In this document: one piece after another, positions 1 through 18,596 of the stretch | Layout of the letters: every line of letters begins with the position of its first letter | Position numbering within the stretch: the first letter of the stretch is position 1 | Assembly (NCBI GenBank): GCA_964368565.1 | Contig: CAYJAC010000004.1 | Location: 1 to 48,706, forward strand | DNA from: an uncultured Candidatus Saccharibacteria bacterium | GTDB taxonomy: Bacteria > Patescibacteriota > Minisyncoccia > Phycocordibacterales > UBA6065 | Length of the DNA: 48,706 nt | Direction: 5' to 3' | Position numbers and translations under genes: made by a program | The notes under the pieces: generated by a model | The model's database searches: none | Seen by the model: only the letters and a program-made list of their open reading frames with translations | Told to the model about the DNA's origin: nothing

Positions 1-80
1 GCCGAGAGGGACTCGAACCCCCGGAGGCCATAGGCCGCGACGTTTACAGCGTCGTGTAATTGCCGCTATACGATCGGCGC
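1..80 (-). tRNA. tRNA-Tyr (anticodon GTA), 3' end truncated by the window edge
   Basis: Reverse complement reads GCGCCGA-TC-GTA(D loop)TAC-A-CGACG-CTGTAAA-CGTCG, a long variable arm (CGGCCTATGGCC), then GGGGG-TTCGAGT-CCCTC-TCGGC. The anticodon loop is CT-GTA-AA. A long variable arm is expected for bacterial tRNA-Tyr. The last acceptor nt lie outside the window. Confidence 0.85.
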
Positions 81-701
81 ATAACGGTGCATGTAGTAAT
101 CTATCATATTCTTGATATCCAGCAACAATTTTTTCTCATGATAGCGGACATGGATCATGCCGTGTGGCATCCGTCCACTCTTGCCAGGGTCCGCGGCTTT
201 TATGTAAGGTTTAGAGAATTGGCTGGTAGGAATTTCAGTTATACCTGCCCAGTACCTAATTGACTCGGAGGTACTTACGTTGGCATGACAATAAAGGTAG
301 ATGCGAAACTTACTCTCGTCTAATTCATATACTGATCTCAAAAAATTCAAAAAAACTTTAATCATGAGTGGATCACTGTTGGCAAAATCAACGAATTTGG
401 CTGGTCTTTCAACAGATCCTTTGTATCCTTCAGCCCAATAGAGCATTGATCCAGCTACTGCAATTTCCTGAAGCTGAGTCGAATCAAGGATTTTTCTTTT
501 AAATGATTGCTTAGATTGCGAGAATTTCAATTGCTGTACTTCCTGGTCTGTACGCCTTTTTATGCCATGCTTTCTCATAATAAAAAGCACAGCATCCGTC
601 GATACTCTGTAATCTTTGGCTATTTTAGAGACAGTAAAACCCTGGTCTCGATAGAGCAAGGTTATTCGATCTATTTCTGTATCTGCAATTGCTTGTCTCA
701 T
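66..701 (-). CDS. HTH + LAGLIDADG-like endonuclease-family protein (paralog 1 of 3)
   Basis: From track ORF 66..719. The ATG at 701 lies 8 nt after an extended -10 (TGCTATGGT). N-terminal HTH (GFTVSKIAKDYRVSTDAV). LYWAEGYK and FANSDPLMIKVFLNFL motifs, plus IRYWAGITEIPTSQFSKPY, are shared with ORFs 4026..4682 and 17825..18514. The last 4 codons plus TAG are nt 1-15 of tRNA-Tyr. Confidence 0.7.
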   Translation of the reverse strand: MRQAIADTEIDRITLLYRDQGFTVSKIAKDYRVSTDAVLFIMRKHGIKRRTDQEVQQLKFSQSKQSFKRKILDSTQLQEIAVAGSMLYWAEGYKGSVERPAKFVDFANSDPLMIKVFLNFLRSVYELDESKFRIYLYCHANVSTSESIRYWAGITEIPTSQFSKPYIKAADPGKSGRMPHGMIHVRYHEKKLLLDIKNMIDYYMHRYAPIV

Positions 702-709
702 ATCGTTTA

Positions 710-742
710 ACCATAGCAAAAAGGAGATAAAGAAATTATAAA
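710..742 (-). promoter_or_regulatory. Bipartite motif TTTATA-ATTTC-TTTATC plus extended -10 TGCTATGGT
   Basis: Minus strand reads ctTTATAatttcTTTATCtcc-tttt-TGCTATGGT-taaacgat-ATG. The same architecture occurs at six other sites in the window. Confidence 0.55.
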
Positions 743-782
743 GATTTAATTACTTCTGAGTGCAATGTGCTATATTCTCTAT

Positions 783-1910
783 ATGAAAAAACAGTCCCAC
801 CGATCATGGGTGGAAGTCGATTATAAAGCTATAACAAAGAATACGCGCACTATGAAGGCGCTTCTTTCAGGTGCCACGGCCATGATGACGGTGGTTAAAT
901 CAAATGCCTATGGGCACGGCATGATTTCATCCGCAAAAGCTGCTTTAGCTGGCGGTTCGTCGTGGCTTGCTGTCGATGAAATAACCGAGGCGCTAGAACT
1001 GCGCAAAGAGGGAATCAAGGCACCAATCCTTGTCCTCGGCTACACCTTGCCCGATCTGTATGCGACCGCCGCCGCAAAGAAAATCTCGCTCATGATTTCA
1101 TCACTGGAATCGCTTCAGGACCTTTCGAAAATAAAGCTTTCAAAACCTCTCCATATCCACCTTAAATTCGAGACCGGCCTTCATCGTCAGGGAATTATGC
1201 CGTCACATGTCCAGCAGGTTATCCGTATCATTTGCGCCGAACAGTTTCCGGCAACAATCGAGGGTGTCTACACGCATTTCGCAACTATCGAAGATCCAAT
1301 GGCTCAGGATTATTCAATCATGCAGCGCGAGGCTCTCAAGGAAATCGTCACCAAATTAAAAGCCAAGGGTTTTACACCTATCACACACGCTTCATCGAGT
1401 GCGGGTGTCCTTTTCTCAAAAGATTTCCATTTTGATATGGCTCGTACGGGTATTGCAACCTACGGACTCTGGCCTTCGCGCGAAATTCATCGCTGGGCAA
1501 AAGATACGGCGCTCGTCCCGGCTCTGACTTGGAAGACAATTGTGAGTGAAGTAAAGATGATTGAAAAAGGTGCAAAGGTTGGCTATGACCTGACGTATAC
1601 CGCACCGCGTAATGCGCGCATCGCCATTATCCCCGTAGGATATTGGCATGGCTTGCCACGGTCGCTCTCGAACAAGGGTTTTGTGCTCGTCGGAGGCAAG
1701 AGGGCAAACATCATCGGCCGTGTCTCTATGGATATTACGATAATCGATGTTACTGATGTGCCCAGTGTTCGTATTGGCTCAGAGGTTGTGCTGGTCGGTA
1801 CACAGGGCAAGGAGGTTGCCAGTGCCGAGGAAGTGGCTGAAAAGGCGGGTACGATCAATTACGAGCTAGTTACGCGTATAAACCCACTTTTGCCCCGTTT
1901 GGCGGTATAA
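783..1910 (+). CDS. alr: Alanine racemase
   Basis: PLP-lysine motif VVKSNAYGHG. The C-terminal half is typical of Alr (VGYWHGLPR, GRVSMD). The ATG at 783 is 6 nt after TGcTATATT; the track start at 765 is probably an upstream extension. Confidence 0.92.
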   Translation: MKKQSHRSWVEVDYKAITKNTRTMKALLSGATAMMTVVKSNAYGHGMISSAKAALAGGSSWLAVDEITEALELRKEGIKAPILVLGYTLPDLYATAAAKKISLMISSLESLQDLSKIKLSKPLHIHLKFETGLHRQGIMPSHVQQVIRIICAEQFPATIEGVYTHFATIEDPMAQDYSIMQREALKEIVTKLKAKGFTPITHASSSAGVLFSKDFHFDMARTGIATYGLWPSREIHRWAKDTALVPALTWKTIVSEVKMIEKGAKVGYDLTYTAPRNARIAIIPVGYWHGLPRSLSNKGFVLVGGKRANIIGRVSMDITIIDVTDVPSVRIGSEVVLVGTQGKEVASAEEVAEKAGTINYELVTRINPLLPRLAV

Positions 1911-1998
1911 AGAGGCTTTGAGGGGCTTCAGAGGGCCAAAATTTGCGGTTTTAGGGTCTTTATGATACTATCCCTCTACAACATTTTGCATTAAATCC

Positions 1999-2154
1999 AT
2001 GTCACAGGTACAACTCATAATCCTTAGGAACAAGACCACCGGCGAGGTCTATCACACTCGCAAGAACAAGCGAAAGGTAGAACGCAAGCTTGAGCTCAAG
2101 AAATACGACAAAAAGCTCCGCAAGCGCGTCGTTTTCAAGGAAGCAAAGAAATAA
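1999..2154 (+). CDS. rpmG: 50S ribosomal protein L33 (51 aa, below the ORF-track size cutoff)
   Basis: My translation is MSQVQLIILRNKTTGEVYHTRKNKRKVERKLELKKYDKKLRKRVVFKEAKK. It carries the L33 signature Y-T-x-KNKR ... KLELKKY ... KE. TAA at 2152-2154 is followed directly by a terminator. Confidence 0.85.
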   Translation: MSQVQLIILRNKTTGEVYHTRKNKRKVERKLELKKYDKKLRKRVVFKEAKK

Positions 2155-2198
2155 AAACAAAAACCGCTCATCTTAACAGATTGGCGGTTTTTGTTTTT
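2153..2198. terminator. Bidirectional intrinsic terminator (15-bp perfect stem)
   Basis: AAAAACAAAAACCGC (2153-2167) pairs with GCGGTTTTTGTTTTT (2184-2198). A/T runs lie on both sides. It sits between convergent rpmG and the ABC exporter gene. Confidence 0.8.
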
Positions 2199-2205
2199 AT
2201 ACTAT

Positions 2206-3993: not shown

Positions 3994-4019
3994 TTTCTTT
4001 ATCTCCTAAATGCTAGGCT
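3994..4019 (+). promoter_or_regulatory. Bipartite motif (TTTATC-TTTTC-TTTATC) plus extended -10 TGCTAGGCT
   Basis: ttTTATCttttcTTTATCtcc-taaa-TGCTAGGCT-acaggc-ATG(4026). Confidence 0.55.
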
Positions 4020-4025
4020 ACAGGC

Positions 4026-4682
4026 ATGAAAGTCGAACTAAAGATTAAGGCAATAGAGCTGAGAAAGAAAGGCTATTCTCTCAAAGAAATAGTTGATGAA
4101 TTGAACGTACCCAAAAGCTCTGTTTCAGATTGGGTCCGTAACGTTCCAATGTCTAAAAAGTCAGAGCAAAGGTTGCTTACTAAAATAAAAATAGGTCAGC
4201 TTTATTCTCAAAGAGTAAATAGAGAGAAGAGAATTGAAAAAGAAAGAAAAGCGTCAGATAGAGCGAAGGTTTTGCTTTCGAATATACCCAGTAACAATGA
4301 AATGAGACGTCTGGTATGTTCTTTGCTTTATTTGTGCGAAGGTAGAAAGTCTGTGTTTAGAGGGGTAGACTTTATGAATTCTGATCCGGGGCTTATGCGT
4401 CTGTTCTTGAAATCCTTGCGAGAATCTTTTGATCTTGATGAAAGAAGATTCAGAGTACAGGTTCATCTTCATTCATATCACAACAAAGAAACGCAGTTGG
4501 ATTTCTGGTCAGGGGTAACCGCTATTCCACGGAGTCAGTTTATAAAACCTTATTTAAAAAAGACTTCCGGCATGTATAAGAAGGAGGGTTATCCTGGTTG
4601 TGCCTGCGTAAGTTATCACGACGTGACGGTCTCAAGGGAGTTGAGAGCTGTGTCGTCCGAATATATAAAACTCGACCAATAG
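4026..4682 (+). CDS. HTH + LAGLIDADG-like endonuclease-family protein (paralog 2 of 3)
   Basis: N-terminal HTH (GYSLKEIVDELNVPKSSVSDWV), LYLCEGRK, FMNSDPGLMRLFLKSL and FWSGVTAIPRSQFIKPY, all collinear with the other two paralogs. The TAG ends 2 nt before the 3' end of the convergent tRNA-Trp. Confidence 0.7.
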   Translation: MKVELKIKAIELRKKGYSLKEIVDELNVPKSSVSDWVRNVPMSKKSEQRLLTKIKIGQLYSQRVNREKRIEKERKASDRAKVLLSNIPSNNEMRRLVCSLLYLCEGRKSVFRGVDFMNSDPGLMRLFLKSLRESFDLDERRFRVQVHLHSYHNKETQLDFWSGVTAIPRSQFIKPYLKKTSGMYKKEGYPGCACVSYHDVTVSRELRAVSSEYIKLDQ

Positions 4683-4684
4683 GG

Positions 4685-4755
4685 CGGGCGATGAAGGAAT
4701 CGAACCTTCGCCGAAGCGTTTGGAGTGCTTCGTTCTACCACTAAACTAATCGCCC
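4685..4755 (-). tRNA. tRNA-Trp (anticodon CCA)
   Basis: Reverse complement: GGGCGAT-TA-GTTT-AGTGGTA-GAAC-G-AAGCA-CTCCAAA-CGCTT-CGGC-GAAGG-TTCGATT-CCTTC-ATCGCCC-G. It is 71 nt with one A-C mismatch at the base of the anticodon stem. No CCA is encoded. A TGCTAGAAT -10 lies upstream on the minus strand (plus-strand 4782-4790). Confidence 0.85.
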
Positions 4756-4839
4756 GTCAAGTGCTAGCAACTGATTTGCTAAGCAGGTTTGATTCTAGCA
4801 TAGTGCGAGAATTGTTTCCAAAAATGAGATAATAAAGTC

Positions 4840-17777: not shown

Positions 17778-17803
17778 TTTCTTTATCTGTCGCATGCTAT
17801 CCT
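17778..17803 (+). promoter_or_regulatory. Bipartite motif (TTTAGA-ATTTC-TTTATC) plus extended -10 TGCTATCCT
   Basis: cTTTAGAatttcTTTATCtgt-cgca-TGCTATCCT. A second -10-like box, TTTAAT, lies 6 nt before ATG 17825. Confidence 0.5.
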
Positions 17804-17824: not shown

Positions 17825-18514
17825 ATGAAATTAGATTTAAAGAATAGGGCAATAGCCCTGCGACGAGAAGGTAAAACATATTCAGAGATACTGAAGGATA
17901 TTCCTGTTGCAAAGTCGACGCTTACGCTGTGGTTTCATGAAGTTGAATTAGCTGTGCATCAAAAGCAGAGAATAACCGAGAAAAGGATAGCTGGGCAGAA
18001 GAAAGCCGCTCAAGCAAAGCGTCATAAGAGGACTAGATCTCAAGATGCAATATGGACAGAAGCGGAAAGAGAAATTGGGACGCTTTCAAAACGGGAGCTA
18101 TGGCTTATCGGAATAGCCTTGTACTGGGCAGAGGGATCAAAGGAAAAAGAATGGAAACCCGGCACGGGTATGAAGTTTTCTAATTCTGATCCCAGAATGA
18201 TACGGGTATTCTTGAGATGGGTTGGAGAATTTTTCCATACAAAACCGAATGACATTAGTTTTGAGATATTTATTCATGAACACAAAAGGAATCAGATTTC
18301 AGAGGTTGTTAATTTTTGGTCGAGACAGGTCTTTTTTCCAAAAGAATCTTTTAATAAAATTTACTATAAAAGACATAATGTTTTGACCAAAAGAAAAAAT
18401 GTCGGTTTCTTGTACAACGGTCAATTACGCGTTACTATAGCCAAAAGTTCAACTTTAGTTAGGAAGGTAGAGGGTTGGACAAGAGGAATAGATACATATT
18501 GCCAGATCGTCTAA
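17825..18514 (+). CDS. HTH + LAGLIDADG-like endonuclease-family protein (paralog 3 of 3)
   Basis: MKLDLKNRAIALRREGKTYSEI parallels MKVELKIKAIELRKKGYSLKEI of paralog 2. Shared motifs: LYWAEGSK, FSNSDPRMIRVFLRWV, FWSRQVFFPKESFNKIY. The last 4 codons plus TAA (TGC CAG ATC GTC TAA) are nt 1-15 of tRNA-Gln. Confidence 0.7.
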   Translation: MKLDLKNRAIALRREGKTYSEILKDIPVAKSTLTLWFHEVELAVHQKQRITEKRIAGQKKAAQAKRHKRTRSQDAIWTEAEREIGTLSKRELWLIGIALYWAEGSKEKEWKPGTGMKFSNSDPRMIRVFLRWVGEFFHTKPNDISFEIFIHEHKRNQISEVVNFWSRQVFFPKESFNKIYYKRHNVLTKRKNVGFLYNGQLRVTIAKSSTLVRKVEGWTRGIDTYCQIV

Positions 18515-18570
18515 CGGCAGGACGCGGGACTTTGAATCCTGAAATTTTGGTTCGACTCCAAGTCTGGCAA
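18500..18570 (+). tRNA. tRNA-Gln (anticodon TTG)
   Basis: TGCCAGA-TC-GTCT-AACGGCA-GGAC-G-CGGGA-CTTTGAA-TCCTG-AAAT-TTTGG-TTCGACT-CCAAG-TCTGGCA-A. It has the U1-A72 pair typical of bacterial tRNA-Gln. No CCA is encoded. Confidence 0.9.
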
Positions 18571-18596
18571 CAACAAGATTTGATACAATAGCTTAC

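What the first reader, a model, noticed from the sequence alone, without database searches (positions are those of the whole stretch)
1..742. Endonuclease-like ORF runs exactly 15 nt into tRNA-Tyr; its stop codon lies in the tRNA D-loop
On the minus strand the 211-aa ORF (701 to 66) ends GCG CCG ATC GTA TAG. These 15 nt are precisely nt 1-15 of the downstream tRNA-Tyr (acceptor 5' strand GCGCCGA, position 8, and the start of the D arm). The stop codon therefore exists only on transcripts that still carry the tRNA 5' end. RNase P cleavage at tRNA +1 would leave a non-stop mRNA. The ORF and tRNA appear to share one promoter (motif at 710-742). The same register recurs at tRNA-Gln (18500).
Basis: partly seen in the sequence, partly recalled or inferred. 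Interest (0 to 1): 0.6.

Follow-up and report, generated by a model that had tools for sequence, protein, structure and literature searches.

The report
tRNA-anchored homing-endonuclease-type gene overlapping tRNA-Tyr
A small DNA-binding nuclease gene of the "selfish" homing-endonuclease type sits flush against the tyrosine tRNA gene and borrows its stop codon from it. It belongs to a large, unnamed family in ultrasmall (Patescibacteria) bacteria whose branches each park in front of one particular tRNA gene.

Summary
ORF1 (window 701→66, minus strand, 211 aa) ends GCGCCGATCGTATAG, which is nt 1-15 of tRNA-Tyr(GTA). ORF2 (17825-18514) ends the same way in tRNA-Gln.

ORF1 is an intact member of an unnamed Patescibacteria family: an N-terminal HTH plus one LAGLIDADG-like nuclease domain, with the motif glutamate invariant in 147/147 members. 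The family has about 2,300 50%-identity clusters at E≤1e-30.

Family members sit directly 5' of a co-oriented tRNA (55/60 sampled, 20 anticodon classes). The protein tree follows tRNA identity. Distribution is patchy: 91/401 genomes in the phylum, 13/22 in the genus, 0-7 copies each. Congeners show clean filled and empty sites at both the tRNA-Tyr and tRNA-Gln loci. The best reading is a free-standing homing-endonuclease-type cassette.

The 15-nt register is not special. Stops range from 43 nt upstream to 114 nt inside the tRNA, and conserved tRNA bases (U8A9G10, U13A14R15, anticodon loop) supply them.

The claim that tRNA-Tyr depends on one promoter shared with ORF1 is doubtful. An extended -10 (TGATAGATT, 106→98) inside the ORF matches the tRNA promoter of cassette-free congeners.

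RNase P leaving a non-stop mRNA is plausible but untested.

This scan has flagged the same class on other DNA at least 39 times. I found no published description.

The parts
1..80 (-). tRNA-Tyr(GTA), class II with a long variable arm. The 5' end is at 80; the last 3 nt are cut off by the contig end.
   Evidence: ARAGORN on genome.fa gives c[-3,80]. Complete, 83-98% identical tRNAs occur in congeners.
66..701 (-). ORF1, 211 aa: N-terminal HTH (about residues 1-55) plus a single LAGLIDADG-like nuclease domain (about residues 65-209; motif MLYWAEGYK with Glu91). It belongs to the Tyr lineage of the family.
   Evidence: The AF2 model has pLDDT 94.7. Best structural matches of the C-domain are LAGLIDADG endonucleases, Z 5-7.5. 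Glu is invariant in 147/147 members.
66..80 (-). 15-nt overlap. The codons A-P-I-V-stop are read from tRNA nt 1-15, and the stop TAG is tRNA U13-A14-G15.
   Evidence: The same overlap class occurs in 9 of 68 orthologues.
710..731 (-). ORF1 promoter, TTTATCT-N6-TGCTATGGT (extended -10). It lies 8 nt before ATG 701, so the mRNA is predicted to be leaderless.
   Evidence: The motif has 14 copies genome-wide against 0.4 in shuffles. In 13 of 14 a start codon follows within 6-39 nt.
98..125 (-). Putative independent tRNA-Tyr promoter inside ORF1's last codons: -35 TTGCTG (125→120), a 16-nt spacer, and the extended -10 TGATAGATT (106→98). It ends 17 nt before tRNA +1.
   Evidence: It aligns with TGnTAnAGT at the same distance in 11 cassette-free congeners and in G430. 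It is conserved as TGATAnAnT at -26 in the nearest orthologue subclade.
17825..18514 (+). ORF2, a 229-aa paralogue of the Gln lineage. It ends 15 nt inside tRNA-Gln, and its promoter is at 17782-17803.
   Evidence: Filled and empty alleles occur in the genus.
18500..18571 (+). tRNA-Gln(TTG).
4026..4682 (+). ORF3, a 218-aa paralogue of the Trp lineage, with its promoter at 3998-4019. Its stop codon abuts the 3' end of tRNA-Trp on the opposite strand with a 1-nt overlap, so the two genes converge.
   Evidence: The same convergent arrangement is seen in congener G414.
4682..4756 (-). tRNA-Trp(CCA).

Best explanation
ORF1 is an intact free-standing gene of the homing-endonuclease type. It has an N-terminal helix-turn-helix and one LAGLIDADG-like nuclease domain, so it would presumably act as a homodimer.

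It belongs to a large, unnamed Patescibacteria family. Each lineage of the family is anchored immediately 5' of one tRNA species; ORF1 is in the tRNA-Tyr lineage, ORF2 in Gln, ORF3 in Trp.

The unit is a compact cassette of about 0.7 kb: its own promoter for a leaderless mRNA plus the ORF. It is wedged against tRNA +1. Cassettes come and go independently at each tRNA locus among close relatives.

Because the coding end is pinned to the tRNA start, the frame often has no stop of its own. It then runs on to the first in-frame stop that the tRNA's conserved bases offer. Here that is U13-A14-G15, which gives a tail APIV and the 15-nt overlap.

Inferred, not shown:
- The nuclease cuts cassette-free alleles at or in the cognate tRNA gene, and the cassette is copied in by repair ('intronless homing').
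- Transcripts from the ORF1 promoter read through the tRNA and are cut by RNase P at +1. That would leave a stop-less mRNA handled by tmRNA, which would limit rather than enable expression.
- tRNA-Tyr itself is mainly made from its own promoter embedded in the ORF's last 45 nt.
For: Protein:
- The AF2 model has pLDDT 94.7.
- The C-domain best matches LAGLIDADG endonuclease domains: 7qsu Z 7.5, I-DmoI 6.3, E-DreI 6.1, WhiA 5.9, I-Vdi141I, I-Tsp061I. The N-domain matches HTH modules.
- In the motif L-Y-W-[GA]-E-G-x-K, Glu is invariant in 147/147 members and Gly in 146/147, although lineages share only about 20-25% identity.

Anchoring:
- All 4 paralogues in this genome lie next to tRNAs.
- Nearly all of the 80 orthologue loci have tRNA-Tyr directly downstream once introns are allowed for.
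- 55/60 sampled members end within 46 nt of a co-oriented tRNA +1, covering 20 anticodon classes.
- The protein tree clusters by tRNA identity: 26 label changes against a minimum of 19 and a shuffled mean of 60.8, with 0/200 shuffles as low.

Mobile-element behaviour:
- 91/401 genomes of the phylum carry 1-7 copies. Some copies have internal stops or are truncated.
- In the genus, 13/22 genomes have copies. The Tyr cassette is present only in G000 and G430.
- G415 is closer to G000 than G430 is (alr 86% aa against 75%), yet it lacks the Tyr cassette. It keeps a 51-nt in-frame remnant between the alr promoter and tRNA-Tyr.
- G404, G414 and G401 keep 30-47 nt of the ORF's 3' end.
- At dnaX/tRNA-Gln, G000, G415, G407 and G416 are filled. 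G430 and G413 are clean empties, with the tRNA 11-28 nt after the dnaX stop.
- The combinations differ. G415 is Gln+ Tyr-, and G430 is Tyr+ Gln-.

Selection: G000 and G430 ORF1 share 72.9% aa, against 75.4% for the neighbouring alr.

Expression anatomy:
- The ORF1 promoter is of a leaderless-mRNA type.
- The putative internal tRNA promoter is described.
- The pre-tRNA leader signature (T-1, A-2, T-3, A-rich) is kept inside the ORF ends.
- RNase P RNA and tmRNA are both present.
Against: - No cleavage activity, target site or homing event is shown.
- No Pfam, NCBIfam or PHROG nuclease model matches. Only the HTH scores.
- Foldseek gave no LAGLIDADG hit. The VIA Z-scores are below 8, a range the tool warns can reflect only a common arrangement.
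- ORF1 has diverged no faster than the housekeeping neighbour since the G000/G430 split. That also fits a gene kept for a host function.
- The tRNA bodies of a cassette-bearing genome (G000) and two cassette-free genomes (G407, G409) are 98% identical. A target lying wholly inside the tRNA would therefore leave self-immunity unexplained.
- No RNA data bear on co-transcription or RNase P cutting.
Confidence: 0.65

Rival explanations
1. The protein is a domesticated LAGLIDADG-derived DNA-binding protein, like WhiA. It would regulate transcription of the adjacent tRNA gene or operon, for example by binding the promoter embedded in its own 3' end, and would no longer act as a mobile nuclease.
For: The architecture is HTH plus a LAGLIDADG-like domain, and WhiA is among the best structural matches (Z 5.9 and 5.2). 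The tRNA-Tyr promoter lies inside the ORF end. ORF1 is as conserved as alr between G000 and G430. The lineages are tRNA-specific.
Against: The metal-binding Glu of the motif, which WhiA has lost (my background knowledge, not checked here), is invariant in 147/147 members. Only 23% of genomes in the phylum and 2/22 in the genus carry the Tyr copy, and copy number ranges from 0 to 7. Close relatives express the same tRNA without it. Decayed and truncated copies exist.
Confidence: 0.15
2. The stop inside the tRNA would be a designed coupling: ORF and tRNA form one transcription unit from the promoter at 710-731, and RNase P processing decides whether the mRNA keeps its stop. The 15-nt register would itself be functional.
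For: The 15-nt overlap occurs at two loci in the window and in 4/4 cassette-bearing congeners at tRNA-Gln. No terminator can fit. RNase P RNA and tmRNA are present. At tRNA-Gln, the cassette-free alleles give the tRNA no promoter of its own. One contig from an RNA-labelled run covers window 79-260 and stops within 2 nt of the predicted RNase P site, while a DNA run continues across it. This is a very weak hint.
Against: The register is not conserved. In 29/68 orthologues the stop lies upstream of the tRNA, and overlaps of 1-114 nt occur. The overlap classes 10, 15 and 38 nt follow from conserved tRNA bases. The C-terminal tails are conserved only as far as the tRNA sequence forces. tRNA-Tyr has a likely internal promoter. 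ORF3 abuts tRNA-Trp on the opposite strand, so abutment does not require co-transcription.
Confidence: 0.12
3. The protein would act on RNA. It could be a maturase-like helper for group I introns in tRNAs, or a factor in tRNA processing.
For: LAGLIDADG proteins can act as maturases (background knowledge). Group I introns (RF00028) sit in 18 of 138 abutted tRNAs. In G000, G018, G032 and G059, every tRNA-borne intron found lies next to a family member.
Against: tRNA-Tyr, tRNA-Gln and tRNA-Trp in this window have no intron, and neither do about 87% of abutted tRNAs. An invariant catalytic Glu is not expected for a pure maturase. The N-terminal HTH modules match DNA-binding domains.
Confidence: 0.05

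Closest known systems
Free-standing homing endonucleases of T-even phages ('intronless homing'), especially SegB in the T4 tRNA gene cluster (PMC2330249)
   Same: The nuclease gene lies outside any intron or intein and among tRNA genes. It is present or absent between close relatives. It is expected to cut the cassette-free allele nearby and be copied in together with flanking markers.
   Different: SegB is a GIY-YIG enzyme in a phage. This gene is an HTH plus LAGLIDADG-like protein in a cellular genome. It forms many lineages, each welded to within a few nt of one tRNA's +1 and often using the tRNA's bases as its stop. No cleavage has been shown here.
Single-motif LAGLIDADG homing endonucleases (I-CreI type), and the LAGLIDADG domains of I-DmoI, E-DreI and intein endonucleases
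   Same: The core fold is similar. The motif helix ends in an invariant acidic residue followed by Gly. There is one domain per chain, which implies a dimer.
   Different: No sequence-profile match to Pfam LAGLIDADG families was seen. There is an extra N-terminal HTH and extra C-terminal strands and a helix. The gene is not intron- or intein-encoded. Z is only 5-7.5.
WhiA (a LAGLIDADG-derived bacterial transcription factor with an HTH)
   Same: It combines a LAGLIDADG fold with an HTH DNA-binding module, and it is among the best structural matches.
   Different: WhiA has two degenerate LAGLIDADG domains without catalytic residues and a C-terminal HTH, and it is broadly conserved as a single copy (background knowledge). 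Here there is one domain with an invariant Glu, an N-terminal HTH, and a patchy multi-copy distribution.
Collaborative homing: the free-standing endonuclease F-CphI beside the ORF-less psbA group I intron of cyanophage S-PM2 (recalled from memory, not read here)
   Same: In a subset of loci, a family member lies next to a tRNA carrying an ORF-less group I intron. Examples are the paralogue ORF4 on contig C15 of this genome and the Met lineage in G032 and G059, whereas G003 has neither cassette nor intron.
   Different: The tRNA-Tyr, tRNA-Gln and tRNA-Trp beside the three window copies have no intron. Most family members are not next to an intron.
tRNA punctuation of mitochondrial transcripts
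   Same: A coding region abuts a tRNA with no spacer, so tRNA 5' processing would define the mRNA 3' end.
   Different: In mitochondria, incomplete stops are completed by polyadenylation. Here cleavage would remove the stop. Bacterial RNase P and tmRNA would be involved, and nothing has been shown at the RNA level.

Membership tests
LAGLIDADG endonuclease fold family | An alpha-beta-beta-alpha-beta-beta-alpha core whose first helix is the LAGLIDADG motif helix. | tested here: inconclusive
   The AF2 model has pLDDT 94.7. The VIA-align wide search puts LAGLIDADG domains at the top for residues 65-209, with the alignment starting at the motif helix: 7qsu Z 7.5, 2vs8 6.3, 1mow 6.1, 3e54 5.2, 2dch 4.9, 2cw8 4.5. 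All Z-scores are below 8, and Foldseek found none.
LAGLIDADG endonuclease fold family | A conserved acidic (metal-binding) residue followed by Gly at the C-terminal end of the motif helix. | tested here: met
   In L-Y-W-[GA]-E-G-x-K, Glu is present in 147/147 members, Gly in 146/147 and Lys in 135/147. E91 is invariant in A1 and A2.
LAGLIDADG endonuclease fold family | A match to a curated sequence model (Pfam LAGLIDADG_1, _2, _3 or _WhiA). | tested here: inconclusive
   ORF1 alone hits only HTH_23. Of 76 members scanned, the 25 families listed were all HTH families. Families matched by few members were not shown.
LAGLIDADG endonuclease fold family | Site-specific double-strand DNA cleavage with 4-nt 3' overhangs. 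| not testable with these tools
   This needs biochemistry.
Free-standing homing endonuclease gene (intronless homing) | The gene is not inside an intron or intein and forms a self-contained cassette. | tested here: met
   It has its own promoter and ORF between alr and tRNA-Tyr, or between dnaX and tRNA-Gln. No intron is present in these tRNAs.
Free-standing homing endonuclease gene (intronless homing) | Presence or absence at one and the same locus among close relatives, with a patchy distribution and decaying copies. | tested here: met
   The Tyr locus is filled in G000 and G430. It is empty or holds a remnant in G415, G404, G414, G401 and others. The Gln locus is filled in 4 congeners and cleanly empty in G430 and G413. 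91/401 genomes carry copies, some with stops or truncated.
Free-standing homing endonuclease gene (intronless homing) | The enzyme cuts the cassette-free allele near the insertion point, and the cassette is copied in with flanking markers. | not testable with these tools
   There are only indirect hints. The lineages are tRNA-specific, and two tRNA-Tyr allele types sit at the same locus in the genus.
WhiA-like domesticated LAGLIDADG regulator | Catalytic residues are lost, and the gene is conserved as a single copy across the clade. | tested here: not met
   Glu is invariant. Copy number is 0-7 per genome, and 23% of genomes in the phylum carry any copy.
Collaborative homing pair (free-standing endonuclease plus ORF-less group I intron) | The adjacent target gene carries an ORF-less group I intron. 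| tested here: not met
   tRNA-Tyr, tRNA-Gln and tRNA-Trp in the window are intron-free. The feature is met only for the paralogue on contig C15 (tRNA-Thr(GGT), 189-nt intron) and for 18/138 sampled loci.
mRNA-tRNA co-transcript processed by RNase P | ORF and tRNA lie on one transcript, and RNase P is present. | tested here: inconclusive
   RNase P RNA is found at C16:13562-13908 with 123.6 bits. There is no room for a terminator. A candidate internal tRNA promoter exists, and no usable RNA data were found.

The most novel reading that the evidence does not exclude
Patescibacteria may host a phylum-wide guild of tRNA-anchored homing endonuclease cassettes. Each lineage would recognise its cognate tRNA gene. 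The guild would drive in-place turnover of tRNA alleles and the spread of the otherwise 'endonuclease-less' group I introns found in these tRNAs. The cassettes would be kept harmless because RNase P cleavage at tRNA +1 strips the stop codon from read-through mRNAs, sending most of the nuclease to tmRNA-mediated degradation.
Probability: 0.25. Interest if true: 0.8.

Novelty: new variant of a known kind. Interest (0 to 1): 0.55.

Why it matters
If the nuclease activity and homing are confirmed, this would be a very large class of free-standing homing endonucleases in cellular genomes that is, as far as I could find, undescribed. The family has about 2,300 50%-identity clusters at E≤1e-30.

It would have an unusual niche. 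Each lineage is welded to the first nucleotide of one tRNA gene.

It would also explain several oddities of Patescibacteria genomes:
- hypothetical genes that 'run into' tRNAs;
- tRNA genes whose promoters lie inside coding sequence;
- tRNA alleles and orientations that flip between congeners;
- ORF-less group I introns in tRNAs.

It would offer natural nucleases with tRNA-gene specificities.

For annotation, it shows that these ORF/tRNA overlaps are real and need not be 'fixed'.

Tried and rejected
- Foldseek against PDB gave no match at E≤0.001. The top rows were OmpA-like with TM 0.3-0.4, so I discarded them in favour of the exhaustive VIA search.
- Pfam, PHROGs and NCBIfam matched only the N-terminal HTH.
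- The PDB profile search also matched only HTH proteins.
- ESM Atlas could not read the window's own sequence. The homologue P0010 gave only unnamed 'hypothetical protein' clusters.
- I tested whether the upstream motif TTCTTTATCTCC...TGCTA is specific to these genes. It is not. It is a genome-wide leaderless-promoter type that also precedes ORF6N, RadC, DUF3800-like, helicase and bL32 genes.
- I looked for a -10 conserved at a fixed distance across the whole Tyr lineage. It is absent (12/76 at -23). It occurs only in the ORF1 subclade and in the genus.
- I looked for a tRNA stub or half-tRNA upstream of ORF1, ORF2 and ORF3, a lead from earlier scan notes. None was found.
- The generic sigma-70 scan of 1-900 gave no more hits than shuffles.
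- RNA evidence: no listed holder is on record as RNA. Laying the RNA-labelled runs gave four short low-depth contigs, which is not enough to show transcripts or ends.
- I considered intron enrichment at abutted tRNAs. 18/138 abutted tRNAs carry introns, against 12/141 other tRNAs in the same loci. This is not clearly different, so I make no enrichment claim beyond the six genomes inspected.
- Literature searches found tRNA group I introns in CPR genomes mentioned in passing (PMC8172020) and SegB (PMC2330249). I found no description of this family.
Full report
**1. The observation**

On the minus strand, an ORF starts at ATG 701 and ends ...TAT GCG CCG ATC GTA TAG, with the stop at window 68-66. 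ARAGORN on the window alone misses the downstream tRNA because the contig end removes its last 3 nt. On the whole contig it calls tRNA-Tyr(GTA) at c[-3,80]. The last 15 nt of the ORF are therefore tRNA nt 1-15, and the stop TAG is U13-A14-G15.

The second claim also holds. ORF2 (17825-18514, plus strand) ends TGC CAG ATC GTC TAA, which is nt 1-15 of tRNA-Gln 18500-18571.

The window is contig C4 of a 0.8-Mb, 27-contig, roughly 47% GC genome. Its relatives are Patescibacteria.

**2. What the ORF is**

ORF1 has three paralogues in the genome:
- ORF2, at tRNA-Gln.
- ORF3 (4026-4682, plus strand), whose stop abuts the 3' end of tRNA-Trp on the opposite strand.
- A copy on contig C15, lying 105 nt upstream of an intron-containing tRNA-Thr(GGT).

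The curated libraries recognise only an N-terminal helix-turn-helix.

With a 31-sequence alignment, AlphaFold gives a confident model (pLDDT 94.7). Foldseek finds nothing convincing.

The exhaustive VIA search places LAGLIDADG endonuclease domains at the top for residues 65-209: TliVMA intein endonuclease Z 7.5, I-DmoI 6.3, E-DreI 6.1, WhiA 5.9, I-Vdi141I and I-Tsp061I. Residues 1-55 match HTH modules. These Z-scores are moderate.

The motif supports the assignment. L-Y-W-[GA]-E-G-x-K lies at the end of the first helix of the domain. Its Glu is invariant in 147/147 family members and its Gly in 146/147, although lineages are only about 20-25% identical.

The family is large. There are 2,293 50%-identity cluster representatives at E≤1e-30 and 6,776 at E≤1e-10. 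Sources label them 'hypothetical'.

**3. Anchoring to tRNAs**

I fetched 80 orthologue loci of ORF1 (37-49% identity). Nearly all have tRNA-Tyr(GTA) on the same strand right at the ORF end. The apparent exceptions are contig ends or tRNA-Tyr genes carrying 200-370-nt introns. The usual context is tRNA-Thr(UGU) - ORF - tRNA-Tyr - (tRNA-Gly(UCC)) - tRNA-Thr(GGU).

I also sampled 60 members from 401 genomes of the phylum. In 55 of them the ORF ends within 46 nt of the +1 of a co-oriented tRNA. The tRNAs are Tyr, Trp, Gln, Gly, Ser, Arg, Ile, Phe, Val, Thr, Met, Lys, Leu and Ala.

A tree of 147 members clusters by downstream tRNA. It needs 26 label changes, against a minimum of 19 and a shuffled mean of 60.8, and 0 of 200 shuffles were as low. 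ORF1, ORF2 and ORF3 fall in the Tyr, Gln and Trp clades respectively.

**4. The register**

Among 68 Tyr-lineage loci with a scorable junction:
- In 29 the stop lies upstream of the tRNA, and in 26 of those it is within 7 nt.
- In 39 it lies inside the tRNA. The overlaps are 1, 5, 6, 10, 13, 15 (9 cases), 18, 22, 38 (9 cases; the UAA formed by U35-A36-A37 in the anticodon loop) and up to 114 nt.

In the other lineages the commonest overlaps are 10 nt (stop at U8-A9-G10) and 15 nt.

In this genome's 29 tRNAs, a read-in meets its first stop at nt 13-15 in 8 cases for frame 0, and at nt 8-10 in 13 cases for frame 1.

The C-terminal tails (APIV, APVV...GL) are conserved only as far as the tRNA sequence forces.

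The constant feature is therefore that the coding end is pinned to tRNA +1. The 15-nt register is a mechanical consequence of the frame plus conserved tRNA bases.

**5. Mobile-element behaviour**

Only 91 of 401 genomes in the phylum have a copy. Copy number is 1-7, and some copies carry internal stops or are truncated. In the window's genus, 13 of 22 genomes have copies. The Tyr cassette is found only in G000 and G430.

G430 is collinear with window 1-2203 at 73.8% DNA identity. The ORF1 proteins are 72.9% identical and the adjacent alr proteins 75.4%.

G415 is closer to G000 (alr 86% aa) but lacks the cassette. Between the alr -10 box and tRNA-Tyr +1 it has 51 nt. These are open in ORF1's frame and resemble ORF1's last codons. 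G404, G414 and G401 keep 30-47 nt of the ORF's 3' end at about 80% identity.

These remnants point to an ancestral cassette that was lost repeatedly by deletion.

At the dnaX/tRNA-Gln locus, G000, G415, G407 and G416 are filled, all with the 15-nt overlap. In G430 and G413 the tRNA sits 11-28 nt after the dnaX stop. The cassette of about 740 nt thus occupies exactly that spacer, and its right edge is within about 6 nt of tRNA +1.

The Tyr and Gln cassettes assort independently. G415 is Gln+ Tyr-, and G430 is Tyr+ Gln-.

A pair in another genus behaves the same way. G059 has a cassette where G003 has none.

**6. Promoters and processing**

It occurs 14 times in the genome against 0.4 in shuffles. 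In 13 of 14 copies it is followed 6-39 nt later by a start codon, most often 6-8 nt later. This marks promoters of leaderless mRNAs for assorted genes, and it supports ATG 701 as the start of ORF1.

Inside ORF1's last 45 nt lies TTGCTG-16-TGATAGATT (125→98). Eleven cassette-free congeners have TGnTAnAGT at the same distance from tRNA-Tyr +1, and in those genomes it must be the tRNA's promoter. The nearest orthologue subclade keeps TGATAnAnT at -26, including the choice of CTG/ATG and ATA codons.

tRNA-Tyr therefore probably has its own promoter embedded in the coding sequence. This element is not universal in the lineage.

The leader signature T-1, A-2, T-3 with an A-rich stretch upstream is the same for tRNAs abutted by a cassette and for other tRNAs. 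This fits ordinary RNase P processing at these junctions.

RNase P RNA and tmRNA are both present. Read-through ORF1 transcripts cut at +1 would lack a stop. That is inference. No RNA data were usable.

**7. Introns**

The inserts in abutted tRNAs are group I introns (RF00028).

In G000, G018, G032 and G059, every tRNA-borne intron I found lies next to a family member. G003 has neither a cassette nor an intron. The other introns in the genomes checked are in or beside rRNA genes.

The three tRNAs in this window are intron-free, so this bears on the family rather than on this locus.

**8. Verdict**

The best reading is a free-standing homing-endonuclease-type cassette anchored to tRNA-Tyr (confidence 0.65). 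The main rival is a domesticated regulator (0.15).

I found no publication that describes the family. The scan's own notes hold 39 earlier findings of the same class on other DNA. One of their leads, a tRNA stub upstream of the gene, was not seen at the three loci here.

Noticed in passing
G000 contigs outside the window: C6:6158-6185; C15:18982-19050 (2 copies); C15:19359-19386; C15:19566-19670 (3 copies); C20:13300-13325: Degenerate copies of a tRNA's own 5' half lie upstream of tRNA-Asn, Thr(GGT), Thr(CGT), Asp and Val(GAC). Each has the cognate 7-nt acceptor strand followed by TAGCTGTTTTGGTAG, with the D-loop CAGYTGG changed to GTTTTGG. The TGGTAGnT part resembles the extended -10 of the tRNA-Tyr promoters in congeners, so these mimics may act as tRNA promoters. 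None occurs in the window.
   Followed up: partly
G000 C15:18343-18949 and C15:19054-19319: A fourth paralogue (Thr lineage) lies 105 nt upstream of tRNA-Thr(GGT). This is the only tRNA in the genome with an intron (189 nt). Two half-tRNA mimics lie between the paralogue and the tRNA.
   Followed up: partly
window 4026-4756: ORF3 (Trp lineage) ends 1 nt into the 3' end of tRNA-Trp on the opposite strand. In other genera the same lineage sits 5' of a co-oriented tRNA-Trp. Congener G414 shares the convergent form. The tRNA looks flipped in place, possibly by recombination between its acceptor-stem inverted repeats. This mechanism is inference.
   Followed up: partly
window 1-1910 compared with congeners (L154-L166): tRNA-Tyr stays next to alr across the genus, but its orientation relative to alr differs. 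It is divergent in G000, G415 and G430, and co-directional in G404, G414, G401, G416 and G417. Two very different tRNA-Tyr allele types occupy the same locus behind a conserved flank: GCGCCGATCGnATAGCGGC... and GCGTAGATGGCGGAGTGGTC....
   Followed up: partly
window 3998, 17782, 37362 and 731 (minus strand); 10 further sites on other contigs: A promoter type for leaderless mRNAs, TTTATCT-N5-7-TGnTAnnnT, usually lies 6-8 nt before the ATG. It precedes the three nuclease paralogues, two ORF6N-like genes, RadC-like, DUF3800-like and helicase genes, bL32 and others. alr has a similar TGCTATATT-6-ATG.
   Followed up: partly
L141 (G059:C1:730500-739000), L152 (G032:C1:33000-35500), L145 (G003): In the Met lineage the cassette lies between a divergent tRNA(CAT) carrying a group I intron and a co-oriented tRNA-Met. 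The congener G003 lacks both the cassette and the intron, and its tRNA exons are almost identical.
   Followed up: yes
proteins P0121-P0128: Some family members are 400-576 aa long with 2-3 full-length matches to the profile. They may be tandem fusions giving single-chain double-domain forms, or adjacent copies read through. I did not inspect them.
   Followed up: no
G000 C18:2430-2507: An odd 78-nt tRNA-like gene is called tRNA-Tyr(GTA) without intron search, and tRNA-Thr(GGT) with a 2-nt 'intron' when intron search is on. It lies after tRNA-Gly(UCC), where other genomes have tRNA-Thr(GGU).
   Followed up: no
G000 C11:2294-2859: tRNA-Thr(UGU) is followed by a leaderless-type promoter and a 140-aa Cys-rich ORF (MSNTICKNCKQ...). 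In other genomes this is the position the Tyr cassette follows. I did not characterise the ORF.
   Followed up: no
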